In this document: piece after piece, positions 1,703-5,381 of the stretch | Numbering within the stretch: the first letter of the stretch is position 1 | Layout: every line of letters starts with the position of its first letter | From: a virus | Lineage: Duplodnaviria; Heunggongvirae; Uroviricota; Caudoviricetes | IMG/VR virus record: IMGVR_UViG_2534681647_000007 | Direction: 5' to 3' (one strand) | Length of the DNA: 5,381 nucleotides | Position numbers and translations under genes: made by a program | Notes under the pieces: model-generated | Seen by the model: only the letters and a program-made list of their open reading frames with translations | Told to the model about the DNA's origin: nothing | Database searches by the model: none

Positions 1703-1914
1703 TAAAACCTCGCCAGTTTAAATCCCGGTTTTCCCCGCCTGCGGCTCACCATCGCGGCAAGCCTGCGTTCCCACTCCTGACGTCCGGCGCGGATCTGAGA
1801 AAGGCTTTCCAGCGTCAGTTGCTGCCCGTTGAAGATGACAGACTTTCCCTCCAGTACGGCCATTTCCGCTTCACGGTACCGCTGTATCATTTCTCTGGCT
1901 TCTTCTGTGCTCAC
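1702..1914 (-). CDS. gpW-like head-tail joining (head completion) protein; GTG start preferred over the ORF-track ATG at 1938
   Basis: C-terminus MVSRRRGKPGF closely resembles the lambda gpW C-terminus (recalled as ...TQRRRGPAGFYV), and the size is about 70 aa like gpW (68 aa). A perfect AGGAGG Shine-Dalgarno (plus 1921-1926, cctcct) sits 6 nt upstream of GTG at 1914-1912, and that GTG overlaps the large terminase TGA stop (GTGA). The ATG at 1938 has no comparable ribosome-binding site and would add 8 residues absent from lambda W. Confidence 0.8.
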   Translation of the reverse strand: MSTEEAREMIQRYREAEMAVLEGKSVIFNGQQLTLESLSQIRAGRQEWERRLAAMVSRRRGKPGFKLARF

Positions 1915-4034
1915 AACCAGCCTCCTGATGTTATCCATGGATTATCTTCCGCACGCTCCGTCCGCAGTTTTTTCTTCCGGCGACGGCGTTTTTCTGCCCC
2001 GGCCGTCAGTTCCGGGGATACCGTTTCACCAGAACGCTCCTGCGGGAAGACGAGCCACGTTTCCCGCTGTGCCCAGTCCGGTGCGGAGGGCCAGCGGATC
2101 TTTTCGTAACCATGCAGAACGGCAAGCGCATCCGCATAAACCAGCAGGTCAAACGCTTCGTTAGCGCCCCTGCCCGGTTTTCGCCATTTTCCGTCACTGC
2201 CGCGCTCTTCATAGGTCAGCTCATCGTAAAACCACCGCCCCAGCCAGTCGGGAAAGTGGATATAGTTCGGCCCTGGTGTGTCACGCCACAGGGCATTATT
2301 TACACGATCCTTAAACGCATCCGTCTGAACCAGCCACAGCGCGACATCGCCACTGGCTCTGGCACGGCGGGCACTTCTGCCGGTATTATCCGGGAAGGTT
2401 CGGTTAATCAGCCTGTCACGGCGAAGTCCATCCCCCTTGAACAGAAACACCCTGTTGCCCAGTCCGTCACTCCGGCAACGACGCCAGAAACGATAGGCGT
2501 TATCTGTCACCCCGGCTTCCCCTCCCGTATCCACCGCCATGGCCATCAGACGCATGCGCACATCCGGATCAGAAGCCAGCGGCCATGTTTTATGGAACAC
2601 ATCCGTCAGCAACAAATCCCAGTCCTCCGGATATGCCGCCGGATCAACCGGCAGACTTTCACCGTTGGGACTGCAGCGCAGTGAATGCCGGATGTTGTAG
2701 CGATCAACAATCCAGCGTTCCCCCTGCTCTCCGTATCCGGTGATCTGCACAACAAAACGGCGATTTTTACCGCCCTGTACGTCAACCGTTGCCTCAATAA
2801 AACGCACACCATCCGGCACAGATCGCCGGGGAAACGGCTCGGCACGCTGTTCAAGCAGTTCACTTTTACGCTGTTCCGTGGCTGAACGGGGCAGATAGGG
2901 TCGTCCGATATCGGTGTTCACCACCGCTTTCAGGGTCTCTTCACTGCCGGTTCGCTCATACTCTTCTTCTGCCGCCAGCAGTTTAAAAATCAGTTGTTCC
3001 CAGGTCTGAAACGCCGCAGCTGGCCCCTCCATCCAAAATGACGCAATCCGGGAGTTTCGTGGCGTTCCGGTGATACTGCCGTCCGCCGCCGCCCGTTCAC
3101 CTTCACGAAGCCAGATCCCCTGGTTATTCAGTTCGCGTTTCTGCTCAGGGGCAATCAGCCCGCGACAATGCGGACACATCAGACGGGCAGCCTGACCGGC
3201 AGCCACAAAATCCGGGTTATTCCGGTATCCGGTCATGTTATCCATCACCGGCTGAAAATATTCCCCGCAGTGCGGACACGGCCAGTACCACCGGCGGCGG
3301 TCTCCCCGGTTATACAGTGACAGGATCCCCGTTGTTGGCGGTGCCTCATGTGCGCCACCACAACGCCATTTGGTATCGGTGATATCCCGCCCCGGTGAAC
3401 TCTCGACCAGGGTCATCCCCGAGGACATAAAGGTGGTGGTACGCTTTGAGGCCAGCGTGAAGGCATCCCCTTCCCCGTCCACATTTTCAGGGAAACGGTC
3501 ATAATCCGTCAGCGCCACACGACGGTAATCCGAAGAGGAAAAGACGGTGATCGACGGCCAGCCAATCTTCAGGAAGGAGCCGTCAAGAAACATTTTATCG
3601 TGGACGTTGTTGTCATTACGGGAAGGACTGAGGCGCTTGCTGACCTCCGGACTGTGGCGAAACGTCCTGGAAAGACGCGTTCTGGAATGCTCACGCGCCT
3701 TCGTCTCAGTCATCTGCACCACCAGCATATCCGCCGGATCACAGATGATGCCGTACACAATCCAGCCATCAATCAGCCCTTCGGTTTTCCCGGTTCGCGC
3801 AGGTCCCACAAACACCACCGCGTCATATTCACGGGCTGATAATGTATTAATGGGGTCAATCATATAGGGCGTCAGCGATGACTCCCACGGACCGGAAGTA
3901 TTGGCTCCCCGTGGAACCCGCATATAACGCCTGATGGCTTCCGCTACTGGTAACCGGCTGGGTGGGCGAAACAGCGAGGCCACTTCGCGCCAGATATCGG
4001 ATGCGCGGCTATGGCTCTCGTTCACCTGATTCAC
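1911..4034 (-). CDS. Terminase large subunit (lambda gpA family)
   Basis: 707-aa ORF. The N-terminal motif SLFRPP aligns with lambda gpA SLFRPEP at the same distance from the start. P-loop-like GPARTGKTE is present. Paired Cys motifs CPHCGEYF ... CPHCRG resemble the CPHCGEE region of lambda gpA. It lies directly downstream of a Nu1-like gene and a cos site. GTG start at 4034-4032 overlaps the small-subunit TGA stop (GTGA), with GAGG 7 nt upstream. Confidence 0.93.
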   Translation of the reverse strand: MNQVNESHSRASDIWREVASLFRPPSRLPVAEAIRRYMRVPRGANTSGPWESSLTPYMIDPINTLSAREYDAVVFVGPARTGKTEGLIDGWIVYGIICDPADMLVVQMTETKAREHSRTRLSRTFRHSPEVSKRLSPSRNDNNVHDKMFLDGSFLKIGWPSITVFSSSDYRRVALTDYDRFPENVDGEGDAFTLASKRTTTFMSSGMTLVESSPGRDITDTKWRCGGAHEAPPTTGILSLYNRGDRRRWYWPCPHCGEYFQPVMDNMTGYRNNPDFVAAGQAARLMCPHCRGLIAPEQKRELNNQGIWLREGERAAADGSITGTPRNSRIASFWMEGPAAAFQTWEQLIFKLLAAEEEYERTGSEETLKAVVNTDIGRPYLPRSATEQRKSELLEQRAEPFPRRSVPDGVRFIEATVDVQGGKNRRFVVQITGYGEQGERWIVDRYNIRHSLRCSPNGESLPVDPAAYPEDWDLLLTDVFHKTWPLASDPDVRMRLMAMAVDTGGEAGVTDNAYRFWRRCRSDGLGNRVFLFKGDGLRRDRLINRTFPDNTGRSARRARASGDVALWLVQTDAFKDRVNNALWRDTPGPNYIHFPDWLGRWFYDELTYEERGSDGKWRKPGRGANEAFDLLVYADALAVLHGYEKIRWPSAPDWAQRETWLVFPQERSGETVSPELTAGAEKRRRRKKKLRTERAEDNPWITSGGWL

Positions 4035-4507
4035 ATATCGGCCTCATCACAACAGTCAATGACTGCCTTTTCCAGTGTGTCGCGGATCTCATCAACCACA
4101 ATCTGTACTTCATTCAGTTGTGATGCAGTCCACCCCCTGTCCCTCTCCAGCCGGTCAGGCCAGGTTTCCAGTACCTGAACTATCGCTTTCACCACGACAG
4201 AAAAGGACCGCCTGACATCACTGACTGGCACAAGCTGAACAGTTTCATGCTGAAATTTAAGACGCTCGCGCTCGGACTGATACCATGCCTTACGAGCGTG
4301 AGGATCCATATCCTCATCTTCGGAAGATGGTGGTTTTTCCAGCAACGAAGTTATCAAATCCGTCAGGAGATACAGTTTTTTCTTTTCATTACTGCCTGGT
4401 GCAAGAGGAACATCCGCCATTCTGGCGGCAACAGTCTGCCGGTGCAGACCTGAAAGGGCTGCCAGTTGATTAATATTTAACTTCATATTTTTCAGCTCGC
4501 CGTCCAT
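4031..4507 (-). CDS. Terminase small subunit (lambda Nu1-like, N-terminal winged helix-turn-helix)
   Basis: 158-aa ORF. Residues 8-50, MKLNINQLAALSGLHRQTVAARMADVPL, follow the pattern of the lambda Nu1 N-terminus (MEVNKKQLADIFGASIRTIQNWQEQGMPVL). Sits about 190 bp downstream of a cosN-like element and directly upstream of, and overlapping, the large terminase. ATG at 4507 has a GGAGGG Shine-Dalgarno (plus 4514-4519) 7 nt upstream. An alternative start at ATG 4486-4484 would align exactly with the Nu1 start but has a weaker ribosome-binding site. Confidence 0.8.
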   Translation of the reverse strand: MDGELKNMKLNINQLAALSGLHRQTVAARMADVPLAPGSNEKKKLYLLTDLITSLLEKPPSSEDEDMDPHARKAWYQSERERLKFQHETVQLVPVSDVRRSFSVVVKAIVQVLETWPDRLERDRGWTASQLNEVQIVVDEIRDTLEKAVIDCCDEADM

Positions 4508-4519
4508 TTACATCCCTCC

Positions 4520-4692
4520 ACATAAACCGCAGAACAGAAGTGACTCTGTTTTTTTGTAAAGAAATGCCGCCATATAAAGATGTCGAACAAAAAACAACCA
4601 CAATCATCATCTTTTTAATACTAACAGCATTAAAAACAACAAGTTACCATCATGATGATGATGACGATAAAATCACAAAAATGCGCCTTTTT
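4520..4692 (-). promoter_or_regulatory. cosB-like region: AT-rich spacer between cosN and the small terminase gene, with inverted 9-mers flanking an AT-rich core
   Basis: Strongly AT-rich, non-coding, and located exactly where lambda cosB (R3-I1-R2-R1) lies. Exact inverted 9-mers ATCATCATC (4603-4611) and GATGATGAT (4654-4662) flank a 42-bp AT-rich segment, an arrangement like lambda R3/R2 around the IHF site I1. A 10-bp palindrome CATCATGATG is at 4648-4657. Binding-site identity is inferred. Confidence 0.35.
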
Positions 4693-4739
4693 CCGCGCCC
4701 GCCCGCCCCGTGTTCAGGCCCACCCCACCAGGAGGACCC
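4693..4739 (-). other. cos site core: cosQ (GGGTCCT, plus 4733-4739) and cosN-like GC block (plus 4693-4710)
   Basis: Minus-strand read CGGGTCCTCCTGGTGGGGTGGGCCTGAACACGGGGCGGGCGGGCGCGG compares with lambda, as I recall it, ACGGGTCCTTTCCGGTGATCCGACAGGTTACG-GGGCGGCGACCT-CGCGGG. The GGGTCCT heptamer is identical, the spacing to the GC block is 24 nt here against 23 nt in lambda, and the GC block begins GGGCGG. The distance to the small terminase start, about 190 bp, also matches lambda. Confidence 0.6.
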
Positions 4740-4746
4740 GCAAAAA

Positions 4747-4761
4747 TGATAATGGTTATCA
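4747..4761. promoter_or_regulatory. Fur-box-like 7-1-7 inverted repeat (TGATAAT-G-GTTATCA)
   Basis: Matches the Fur-box core TGATAATnATTATCA at 13 of 14 specified positions. Lies 8 bp from cosQ in a non-coding interval. No convincing -35/-10 pair overlaps it, so a regulatory role is uncertain; it may instead be a cos-associated palindrome. Confidence 0.25.
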
Positions 4762-4968
4762 TTTGCAACAAAATCCAGTTTCTTCCACCATCGCACCGGA
4801 CTGGCGACTATGAGGGGACAACACCGCGCTCCGTTAACGCGGTAAACCCCGGTGTGTATCGTTTTTGATTATCCCCGCACACTCTCGCAGAGGAGTCTCC
4901 CTGTCTGGCTGCGGTCTCTGTTAATGCAGGAATACGGTGACAATACCGCGCATGAATAATAAGGTCGC

Positions 4969-5193
4969 TCAACACACTGGCTGTAATGCAGCGGATACCA
5001 TGCGGCATTTAGCGGCATTCATCGTACACTCAACGGTTAGCTCTTCATTCGTGGCATTCACCTGAAAGGTCCTGGAGTGTAATTGCGTACATTTACCACT
5101 GAACGAACCTTCAACAAGAACACGACCACGCTGCAAAATACGGAACGGAATTGTTCCCTGAAAAGGCTTTACGGTTACCAATAATTTCTTCAT
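4969..5193 (-). CDS. Hypothetical small protein (74 aa, four Cys), in moron position between Rz and cos
   Basis: ATG at 5193-5191 is preceded by GGAGA (spacing about 6 nt) and lies 23 nt after the Rz stop, so it is likely co-transcribed with the late operon. Product MKKLLVTVKPFQGTIPFRILQRGRVLVEGSFSGKCTQLHSRTFQVNATNEELTVECTMNAAKCRMVSAALQPVC. The ORF-track version (4969..5211) begins at an upstream TTG. No recognisable family, signal peptide or transmembrane segment. Confidence 0.4.
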   Translation of the reverse strand: MKKLLVTVKPFQGTIPFRILQRGRVLVEGSFSGKCTQLHSRTFQVNATNEELTVECTMNAAKCRMVSAALQPVC

Positions 5194-5216: not shown

Positions 5217-5381
5217 CTAGTTAATACACTGAGTGCGGATATATTCCTGAAGCATTCTCAATGCTGCCTGGTCGCTGATGATTCCGTCTCTGATACCGAG
5301 AACGTTTCGTCCAGCAACCGGAGAGAGTTCGACGGCGGCATCATTGCCCACGCCGGAGGTGCCGGTGGCTTCACGCACGGT
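5217..5381 (-). CDS. Rz: Rz i-spanin (inner-membrane spanin subunit), C-terminal 54 codons; gene begins beyond window end
   Basis: Hand translation of the minus strand from the window edge gives TVREATGTSGVGNDAAVELSPVAGRNVLGIRDGIISDQAALRMLQEYIRTQCIN, ending at TAG (plus 5217-5219). This aligns with the lambda Rz C-terminus as I recall it (...SVREATTASGVDNAASPRLADTAERDYFTLRERLITMQKQLEGTQKYINEQCR): the VREAT, SGV.N and YI..QC blocks are conserved. Confidence 0.8.
   Translation of the reverse strand, partial: TVREATGTSGVGNDAAVELSPVAGRNVLGIRDGIISDQAALRMLQEYIRTQCIN
5258..5381 (-). CDS. Rz1: Rz1 o-spanin (outer-membrane lipoprotein spanin subunit), C-terminal portion, embedded in the +1 frame of Rz
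   Basis: The +1 frame inside Rz reads PCVKPPAPPAWAMMPPSNSLRLLDETFSVSETESSATRQH, ending at TGA (plus 5258-5260). CVKPPAPPAWAMMPP matches the lambda Rz1 proline-rich core (CVKPPPPPAWIMQPPP). The embedded architecture is the same as lambda Rz/Rz1. Confidence 0.7.
   Translation of the reverse strand, partial: PCVKPPAPPAWAMMPPSNSLRLLDETFSVSETESSATRQH

What the first reader, a model, noticed from the sequence alone, without database searches (positions are those of the whole stretch)
4693..4739. Lambda-type cos site with a variant cosN sequence
The lysis-to-terminase intergenic region carries an exact cosQ heptamer (GGGTCCT) and, 24 nt away, a GC block CGGGGCGGGCGGGCGCGG. Spacing and distance to the small terminase gene closely follow lambda, but the GC block differs from the canonical 12-nt cohesive end GGGCGGCGACCT shared by lambda, 21, phi80 and 82. 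If this is cosN, the phage has a different cohesive-end sequence, which matters for terminase specificity and cosmid packaging compatibility.
Basis: partly seen in the sequence, partly recalled or inferred. Interest (0 to 1): 0.5.

Follow-up and report, generated by a model that had tools for sequence, protein, structure and literature searches.

The report
Lambda-type cos site, variant cohesive end
This is the DNA-packaging cut site (cos) of a lambda-like prophage of enterohaemorrhagic E. coli: it is built like lambda's site but has a different right half of the sticky end, a kind of variation already known in this phage group, so the finding is correct but ordinary.

Summary
On the minus strand, GGGTCCT lies at 4739..4733 and CGGGGCGGGCGGGCGCGG at 4710..4693, about 200 nt upstream of the small-terminase gene.

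The window is a VT1-Sakai/Sp15-type lambdoid prophage of EHEC. Its packaging genes read on the minus strand: TerS, gpA-family TerL, gpW, lambda-family portal.

The region is homologous to lambda cos:
- a shared palindrome plus cosQ (26/30 identical);
- a 24-nt spacer (lambda has 23);
- a cosB-like array: R3, an IHF-like site, inverted R2, then R1.

The deposited genomes of relatives cdtI and Tritos start exactly at the homologous GGGCGG.

In 201 related sites the left half is GGGCGG in 196. The right half takes 23 different forms. This is the asymmetry the Feiss laboratory already described for lambda-like phages.

The predicted cohesive end is 5'-GGGCGGGCGGGC (4708..4697). The right nick is uncertain by about 1 nt, because this variant carries one extra G relative to the commonest form.

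No virion ends were measured here.

Verdict: a new member of a known kind, of low interest.

The parts
4733..4739 (-). cosQ heptamer GGGTCCT (packaging-termination element)
   Evidence: Exact match to lambda cosQ at the homologous position. It lies within a 26/30-identical local alignment to lambda and is conserved in the related phage records (mEp213, mEp460, cdtI, CP-1639, PhiR40_1, Stx2 phages) but not in Fels-1. It is also present in the 201 IMG/VR sites tabulated, but those sites were retrieved with cosQ or cosN-left patterns and filtered on GGGTCCT, so that is not independent evidence.
4709..4732 (-). 24-nt cosQ-to-nick spacer ending in the CG that flanks the left nick
   Evidence: Lambda has 23 nt, the cdtI/mEp460 group 22 nt and the window's group 24 nt.
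4697..4708 (-). Predicted 12-nt 5' cohesive end GGGCGGGCGGGC (cosN core). The left nick is predicted between 4709 and 4708. The right nick, on the other strand, is predicted between 4697 and 4696, give or take 1 nt.
   Evidence: The left half GGGCGG and the preceding CG are identical to lambda. GGGCGG occurs in 196 of 201 related sites, while the right half takes 23 forms. The cdtI and Tritos records start at the homologous G. The register on the right side is ambiguous.
4677..4692 (-). A5-N6-T5 near-palindrome AAAAAGGCGCATTTTT between cosN and cosB (probable bend or I2-like region)
   Evidence: Conserved as CGCGGAAAAAGGC..TTTTT in both clades of relatives. Its function is inferred only.
4647..4666 (-). 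R3-like TerS-binding repeat CGTCATCATCATCATGATGG (bp 43-62 from the predicted end)
   Evidence: It forms a 9-nt perfect and a 22-nt 73% inverted repeat with R2. Its position matches lambda R3 at bp 50-65 (PMC9026076). It co-varies with the TerS N-terminus: CP-1639 and ASU11 have CACCATCACCACC and a 56-60% identical TerS.
4634..4646 (-). I1-like IHF site TAACTTGTTGTTT
   Evidence: 12/13 match to YAANNNNTTGATW. It is the only match with at most one mismatch in the cos region. It aligns with lambda TAACTTAATGTTT, which lies directly after R3.
4603..4617 (+). R2-like repeat (ATCATCATCTTTTTA), in the opposite orientation to R3 and R1
   Evidence: Inverted repeats I1, I3 and I4.
4573..4586 (-). R1-like repeat TCGACATCTTTATA
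   Evidence: 10-nt, 90% inverted repeat with R2 (I3). This is the weakest of the three repeats.
4031..4507 (-). Small terminase subunit gene (158 aa, DUF1441 / phrog_141)
   Evidence: Pfam DUF1441, E 3.8e-48. phrog_141 'terminase small subunit', E 6e-66, with a cross-hit to lambda Nu1's phrog_57 at 1.8e-10.
1911..4034 (-). Large terminase subunit gene (707 aa, gpA family)
   Evidence: Pfam GpA_ATPase 1.8e-81 and GpA_nuclease 6.2e-84. 24% identity to lambda gpA, E 1e-18.

Best explanation
The segment is the cos site of a lambda-like prophage (VT1-Sakai/Sp15 type) and reads 5'->3' on the minus strand.

Proposed mechanism, by analogy with lambda:
1. TerS (a DUF1441 winged-helix protein) binds the R3/R2/R1 repeats of cosB.
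2. IHF bends the I1-like site.
3. This anchors a pair of gpA-family TerL subunits on cosN.
4. TerL nicks the two strands about 12 bp apart, at CACG|GGGCGG on the minus strand and 12 (possibly 13) nt further on the other strand. The result is a 5' overhang, predicted to be GGGCGGGCGGGC.
5. Terminase stays on the cosB side, docks on the portal and translocates DNA.
6. At the next cos, the conserved cosQ GGGTCCT together with cosN triggers the terminating cut.

Shown here: sequence homology, element order and spacing, protein families, and the conservation pattern across relatives. Inferred: binding, nicking positions and overhang length.
For: - The window is 99.9% identical to VT1-Sakai and 99.8% identical to EHEC chromosomes.
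- Gene order is Rz ... cos ... TerS - TerL - gpW - portal.
- The lambda-window local alignment covers cosQ and its upstream palindrome, 26/30 identical, about 6.5 sd above the shuffle mean. A multiple alignment with lambda, mEp213, mEp460, PhiR40_1, CP-1639, Stx2_14040 and Fels-1 keeps most of cosQ, the ACG and GGGCGG core of cosN-left, the right-side CGCGG and the cosB repeats in register.
- Spacings are 24 versus 23 nt (cosQ to nick) and 201 versus 190 nt (nick to TerS ATG).
- In 201 related sites the left half is GGGCGG in 196, the right half has 23 forms, and the right flank is CG in 166. This matches the published functional asymmetry of cosN (PMC4669245).
- The cdtI and Tritos genome records begin at GGGCGGGAGCGT and end in ...CCACG.
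- The virion-derived 4F5 record is linearised 5 nt from that point.
- The record of the induced phage ASU11 lacks exactly 44 nt spanning cosN. This fits an artefact at the physical ends.
- cosB-like inverted repeats and a 12/13 IHF match are present. cosB type co-varies with the TerS N-terminus.
- Sp15, whose cos is 100% identical over 186 nt, is recovered as DNase-resistant packaged DNA (PMC2669165).
Against: - No virion-end data exist for this phage or for any member of its 24-nt-spacer clade.
- The window's cosN carries one more G than the commonest form in that clade. It accounts for 17 of 112 sites with the 24-nt spacer, against 55 of 112 for the commonest form (one search gives 14 and 53 of 108 from a narrower pattern).
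- In the 12-nt register the right flank is therefore GC instead of the conserved CG, and two-fold symmetry drops to 6/16, against 10/16 in lambda.
- TerS shows no BLASTP similarity to Nu1.
- Sp15 is otherwise a defective prophage.
- How the cdtI and Tritos record starts were chosen could not be checked, because the papers are not held.
Confidence: 0.85

Rival explanations
1. It is a lambda-type cos, but the cohesive end is not the 12-mer in lambda register. Because of the extra G, the overhang would be 13 nt (GGGCGGGCGGGCG, right nick before CG|GAAAAAGG, as in the majority variant), or 11 nt, or both nicks would be shifted by 1 nt.
For: The distance between the conserved CG flank and CGCGGAAAAAGG is 10, 11 or 12 nt in this clade. 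The 13-nt register restores the CG right flank and 10/17 symmetry, against 6/16 for the 12-nt register. Feiss proposes that the bottom-strand nick is positioned from cosB-bound TerS (PMC9026076).
Against: The stagger in lambda-like phages is described as 12 nt, and the two-fold arrangement of two TerL protomers on cosN suggests it is set by their geometry (PMC9026076; the geometric argument is inference). The spacing from cosN to R3 also varies by 1-2 nt among relatives, so the anchoring is not rigid. No end data exist.
Confidence: 0.25
2. It is a decayed, no longer cleavable cos relic in a defective prophage. The extra G would be a slippage mutation that impairs nicking.
For: It is a minority variant. 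The right flank is GC rather than CG. Sp15/VT1-Sakai has IS-disrupted head genes (PMC2669165).
Against: Sp15 DNA is packaged into DNase-resistant particles (PMC2669165). The same variant recurs in 17 of the 201 tabulated sites and in several Stx2 phage records. TerS, TerL, gpW and portal reading frames are intact. The right half of cosN is mutation-tolerant in lambda (PMC4669245).
Confidence: 0.08
3. It is not a packaging site at all. The GC block and flanks would be a transcription terminator, a structured RNA, a small coding region, or a pac site for headful packaging.
For: Some RefSeq and GenBank records annotate 'hypothetical protein' across the homologous region. A weak GCGC hairpin followed by T5 can be drawn.
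Against: No terminator-like site was found. Folding is no better than shuffles, z = 0.12. There is no Rfam match near threshold; the best is 20.5 bits against a gathering score of 90. TerL belongs to the gpA 5'-cos family, not a headful type. Conservation follows the lambda cos subsites rather than codons.
Confidence: 0.03

Closest known systems
Bacteriophage lambda cos (cosQ-cosN-cosB; 12-nt 5' end GGGCGGCGACCT)
   Same: The cosQ heptamer is identical and preceded by the same palindrome. The CG flank and GGGCGG left half are identical. Spacings are nearly the same (24 vs 23 nt; 201 vs 190 nt to the TerS start). The order R3, IHF site, inverted R2, R1 is the same. TerL is of the gpA family and the portal of the lambda family.
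   Different: All six positions of the right half differ in the ungapped register, and the right flank is GC rather than CG. The R repeats have an unrelated sequence (ATCATCATC type). TerS is DUF1441 and only remotely related to Nu1. TerL is only 24% identical.
cos of the cdtI / mEp460 / Tritos / PhiR40_1 group (records starting GGGCGGGAGCGT)
   Same: Same TerS family (33% identity over the N-terminal 89 aa aligned to cdtI's TerS). Same cosQ, the same CCYGGTGGGGTGG spacer motif, the same CG|GGGCGGG start and the same CGCGGAAAAAGGC..TTTTT tract.
   Different: The spacer is 22 rather than 24 nt. There are always 12 nt before CG-CGGAAAAAGG, whereas the window has 11. The cosB repeat sequence and the TerS N-terminus differ.
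Putative cos of mEp213 / LLS (GGGCGGCGCGCT; Feiss pers. comm. in PMC12315714) and Gifsy-1/N15 variants (PMC4669245)
   Same: They illustrate the same rule: cosQ and bp 1-6 are conserved, and bp 7-12 vary naturally. mEp213 also shares the upstream ATGATAATCATTATCA palindrome.
   Different: Their right halves stay closer to lambda (2-3 changes). The window's right half is G-rich and variable in length.
Salmonella prophage Fels-1 cos region
   Same: Closest cosB organisation (CATCATCATCATG ... TAACTCATTG ... AAAGATGATGAT) and a TerS 66% identical over the N-terminal region aligned.
   Different: Fels-1 has AGGTACT where cosQ GGGTCCT is expected, and a 22-nt spacer.

Membership tests
lambda-type cos site (5'-extended 12-nt cohesive ends) | cosQ heptamer GGGTCCT about 23 bp upstream of the left nick | tested here: met
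   Exact heptamer at 4739..4733, 24 nt before CG|GGGCGG. It lies inside a 26/30 alignment to lambda.
lambda-type cos site (5'-extended 12-nt cohesive ends) | Left nick context CG|GGGCGG (bp 1-6 conserved) | tested here: met
   Identical to lambda. GGGCGG occurs in 196 of 201 related sites.
lambda-type cos site (5'-extended 12-nt cohesive ends) | Right half bp 7-12 and right flank CG resembling lambda (CGACCT|CG) | tested here: not met
   0 of 6 positions match in the ungapped register, and the flank is GC. This part is documented as naturally variable and mutation-tolerant (PMC4669245), so it is a weak criterion.
lambda-type cos site (5'-extended 12-nt cohesive ends) | Partial two-fold rotational symmetry of cosN (10 of 16 bp in lambda) | tested here: inconclusive
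   6/16 in the 12-nt register and 10/17 in a 13-nt register. The majority variant of the clade gives 10/16.
lambda-type cos site (5'-extended 12-nt cohesive ends) | cosB with R3 - IHF site - inverted R2 - R1 between cosN and the TerS gene | tested here: met
   Inverted repeats lie at 4647-4666, 4603-4617 and 4573-4586, and a 12/13 IHF match at 4646..4634. This rests on sequence pattern only; binding was not tested.
lambda-type cos site (5'-extended 12-nt cohesive ends) | Large terminase of the gpA family encoded directly downstream | tested here: met
   Pfam GpA_ATPase and GpA_nuclease. 24% identity to lambda gpA over the full length.
lambda-type cos site (5'-extended 12-nt cohesive ends) | Small terminase homologous to Nu1 | tested here: inconclusive
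   There is no BLASTP similarity and the Pfam family is DUF1441, not Nu1. However, full-length reciprocal PHROG cross-hits exist: the window TerS hits phrog_57 at 1.8e-10, and Nu1 hits phrog_141 at 5.6e-8.
lambda-type cos site (5'-extended 12-nt cohesive ends) | Virion DNA with complementary 12-nt 5' overhangs at this position | not testable with these tools
   Only indirect evidence is available: the cdtI and Tritos records start at the homologous base, the 4F5 and ASU11 records show anomalies at cosN, and Sp15 DNA is packaged (PMC2669165).
headful (pac) packaging site | Headful-type large terminase and no conserved cos subsites | tested here: not met
   TerL is of the gpA family, and the cos subsites are conserved.

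The most novel reading that the evidence does not exclude
In this clade of EHEC prophages the G-rich right half of cosN varies in length (10, 11 or 12 nt before the conserved CGCGGAAAAAGG). Prophages that share the same cosB and TerS within one genome carry different length variants. If the right nick is placed from cosB, these phages would make cohesive ends of different lengths (12 versus 13 nt). Cross-packaging within the O157 prophage pool would then yield chromosomes with ends mismatched in length. That would be a natural test of whether terminase measures or reads its nick sites.
Probability: 0.15. Interest if true: 0.45.

Novelty: new member of a known kind. Interest (0 to 1): 0.2.

Why it matters
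Knowing the cos site fixes the true genome ends of a very common family of EHEC prophages, including Stx1 and Stx2 converting phages. That helps in orienting assemblies, interpreting virion sequencing, and predicting which co-resident prophages can be packaged by each other's terminase. The comparison also gives a clean natural illustration of cosN asymmetry: the left half is invariant and the right half is free, even in length. It holds although TerL is only 24% identical to lambda gpA. It does not reveal a new mechanism.

Tried and rejected
- The key survey of cosN variation (Vahanian et al. 2017, Virology 509:140) and the cdtI paper (Asakura et al. 2007) are not held. I therefore could not check whether this exact variant is already listed, or how the cdtI ends were determined.
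- No paper on phage ASU11 was found.
- Full-text searches for GGGCGGGAGCGT and GGGCGGGCGG returned only unrelated papers.
- The PhageTerm-based Stx-phage paper PMC7946995 and the Serratia phage paper PMC7556043 concern other cos types.
- A terminator scan, single-strand folding and an Rfam search gave nothing. This rejects the terminator and RNA readings.
- An IMG/VR contig ending at ...GAACAC (the truncated 30-nt entry; most likely L082, whose match lies 10 nt from a contig end) comes from an isolate-genome assembly. Its end is more likely an assembly break at a repeat boundary than a physical end, so I did not use it.
- The last row ("window shifted") used a wrong flank and should be ignored.
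- The heptamer alone is at chance level. Only the composite pattern and the alignment are significant.

Full report
**Observation**

All relevant genes in the window read on the minus strand:
- portal, 200-1702;
- gpW-like adaptor, 1702-1938;
- large terminase, 1911-4034;
- small terminase, 4031-4507.

On that strand GGGTCCT occupies 4739..4733 and CGGGGCGGGCGGGCGCGG occupies 4710..4693. The heptamer alone is at chance level: 1 found against 0.68 expected. GGGTCCT-N20-26-CGGGGCGG never arose in 200 shuffles. The best local alignment of lambda cos to the whole window on either strand is at 4762..4733. It is 26/30 identical and scores 38, against a shuffle mean of 22.6, sd 2.4 and maximum 34.

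**Source and context**

The window is 99.9% identical to prophage VT1-Sakai (Sp15 of E. coli O157:H7 Sakai). It is 98-99% identical to many Stx1- and Stx2-converting phage records and 99.8% identical to EHEC chromosomes. The intergenic region occurs in 1713 of 5426 complete E. coli genomes, with up to 11 places per genome.

Protein assignments:
- The 707-aa protein has Pfam GpA_ATPase and GpA_nuclease domains. The portal is of the lambda family. The 158-aa protein is DUF1441.
- PHROGs call the 158-aa protein a small terminase subunit (phrog_141, 6e-66) and the 78-aa protein a head-tail adaptor.
- TerL is only 24% identical to lambda gpA.
- TerS has no BLASTP similarity to Nu1. The two nevertheless cross-hit each other's PHROG over their full length, at 1.8e-10 and 5.6e-8, so they are remote homologues.

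Upstream, Rz is annotated in VT1-Sakai.

**Homology to lambda cos**

Lambda, from NC_001416, reads:
...GATGATAATCATTATCACTTTAC GGGTCCT (23 nt) ...TTACG | GGGCGGCGACCT | CGCGGG...

The window reads:
...AATGATAACCATTATCATTTTTGC GGGTCCT (24 nt) ...AACACG | GGGCGGGCGGGC | GCGGAAAAAGG...

A multiple alignment was made with mEp213, mEp460, PhiR40_1, CP-1639, Stx2_14040 and Fels-1. It keeps most of cosQ, the ACG and GGGCGG core of cosN-left, the right-side CGCGG, an A/T tract and a CATCATCATC-type block in register.

Taking 4708 as bp 1, the downstream elements are:
- R3-like repeat CGTCATCATCATCATGATGG at bp 43-62;
- a 12/13 IHF consensus match TAACTTGTTGTTT at bp 63-75, which aligns with lambda TAACTTAATGTTT;
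- an inverted R2-like repeat at bp 92-106;
- an R1-like repeat at bp 123-136;
- the TerS ATG at bp 202, against 191 in lambda.

This is the lambda order R3-I1-R2-R1 described in PMC9026076. The cosB type co-varies with the TerS N-terminus. The window and Stx2_14040 share both. CP-1639 and ASU11 have CACCATCACCACC and a TerS only 56-60% identical.

**Where the ends are**

- The deposited genomes of cdtI (AB285204) and Tritos (OV696610) belong to the same TerS family. They begin exactly at GGGCGGGAGCGT|CGCGGAAAAAGG and end in ...CCACG, which is the lambda-type nick.
- The virion-derived record mEp460_4F5 is linearised 5 nt from that point and is 3 nt shorter inside cosN than mEp460.
- The record of the induced phage ASU11 is 99.2% identical to the window over the terminase region. 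It lacks exactly 44 nt, GAACACG...GATTT, spanning cosN when compared with CP-1639. Both anomalies are what assemblies show at physical ends, but this is suggestive only.
- Sp15 has a cos 100% identical to the window over 186 nt. Its DNA is recovered as DNase-resistant packaged DNA (PMC2669165).

**Variation**

Two IMG/VR scans gave 201 related sites.
- The left half is GGGCGG in 196 sites and AGGCGG in 5.
- The right half takes 23 different hexamers.
- The right flank is CG in 166 sites.
- The cosQ-to-nick spacer is 22 nt in the cdtI/mEp460/mEp213 clade and 24 nt in the window's clade.

This matches the published statement that bp 7-12 vary naturally, while cosQ, bp 1-6 and the flanking CG are conserved (PMC4669245). 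A putative variant end, GGGCGGCGCGCT, has already been reported for mEp213 and LLS (PMC12315714).

Within the window's clade, the stretch between CACG and CGCGGAAAAAGG is:
- 10 nt in 75 of 108 sites;
- 11 nt in 28 of 108, of which 14 carry the window's exact form;
- 12 nt in 3 of 108;
- the remaining 2 sites are one 7-nt outlier and one that could not be parsed.

In the lambda register the commonest form gives CG|GGGCGGGCGGCG|CG, with 10/16 symmetry as in lambda. The window gives CG|GGGCGGGCGGGC|GC, with 6/16 symmetry. A 13-nt register, CG|GGGCGGGCGGGCG|CG, restores the flank and gives 10/17 symmetry. The left nick is therefore well supported, and the right nick is uncertain by about 1 nt. One host genome (IMG 2534681835) carries prophages with the same cosB but with 10- and 11-nt variants.

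**Rivals**

- No terminator-like site was found.
- Folding is no better than shuffles, z = 0.12.
- There is no Rfam match near threshold.
- The gpA-family TerL argues against headful packaging.
- A decayed relic is unlikely, given the intact packaging genes, the recurrence of the variant and the packaged Sp15 DNA.

**Mechanism**

The following is inferred by analogy with lambda and was not tested. TerS binds R3/R2/R1 with IHF bending at I1 and anchors TerL on cosN. Staggered nicks create a 5' overhang, predicted to be GGGCGGGCGGGC. Packaging proceeds toward the terminase and head genes. The conserved cosQ together with cosN terminates packaging at the next cos.

**Comparison and novelty**

This is a lambda-type cos. 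It is closest to the cos sites of the cdtI/mEp460, mEp213 and Fels-1 groups. [quoted passage not shown]

Variant right halves are an established feature of lambda-like phages, and putative cos sites of other Sakai prophages (Sp4, Sp14) have been compared with lambda before (PMC2669165). I found no open-access statement of this particular sequence. The main survey (Vahanian et al. 2017) could not be read.

Verdict: a correct identification and a new member of a known kind, of low interest. The one mildly novel lead is the length polymorphism of the right half.

Noticed in passing
window 4748-4766 (minus strand): A palindrome, GCAAATGATAACCATTATC, lies immediately upstream of cosQ. It matches the Fur-box consensus GATAATGATAATCATTATC at 16/19 positions. 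Lambda has GTAGATGATAATCATTATC (also 16/19) at the same place. The element is present in mEp213 and partly in cdtI, and absent in mEp460. Its function is unknown. It is not part of cosQ as defined in the literature I read.
   Followed up: partly
L028 418-437 and 2955-2974; also L077, L142, L179 (two matches ~2537 nt apart); L181 (two matches ~8650 nt apart): Some IMG/VR prophage contigs carry two cos sites of this clade. In L028, L077, L142 and L179 the two are about 2537 nt apart. In L028 they have different cosN and cosB variants and flank a 75-aa ORF and a 629-aa ClpP-protease/major-capsid fusion gene. A truncated TerL ORF (373 aa, starting within the gene) lies downstream. This could be a rearranged prophage or a cos-flanked cassette.
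   Followed up: partly
L011 (Salmonella phage Fels-1) about 270-300: Fels-1 has AGGTACT where cosQ GGGTCCT is expected, although cosN-left and the cosB organisation are conserved. Natural cosQ variation is said to be not apparent in lambda-like phages (PMC4669245).
   Followed up: no
L014 (phage ASU11, ON416862) about 430: The deposited 'complete genome' of the induced phage ASU11 lacks 44 nt (GAACACG...GATTT) that span cosN in its closest relative CP-1639. This is probably an assembly artefact at the virion DNA ends.
   Followed up: partly
L006/L007 (mEp460_4F5, LR595868) record ends: The record starts CCACGGGGCGGGAGCGCGG, 5 nt before the lambda-type nick. It is 3 nt shorter in the cosN right half than mEp460. 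This is either a real deletion or an end artefact.
   Followed up: no
window 4969-5193 (minus strand): A 74-aa ORF (MKKLLVTVKPFQG...) lies between the end of Rz (stop at 5217) and cos. It matches phrog_2571 of unknown function over only part of that profile (positions 100-172 of 291) and has no Pfam hit. The window-to-VT1-Sakai match covers only 93% of the window in two pieces, and Rz sits about 255 nt closer to cos in VT1-Sakai than in the window. This suggests the ORF-bearing segment is absent from VT1-Sakai, but that was not checked by direct alignment.
   Followed up: partly
IMG genome 2534681835: L028, L181, L182: Co-resident prophages in one genome share the same cosB (CGTCATCATCATCAT) but differ by one G in cosN (GGGCGGGCGGCG versus GGGCGGGCGGGC). 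A third site in the same genome has AGGCGGAGGGGC with another cosB type.
   Followed up: partly
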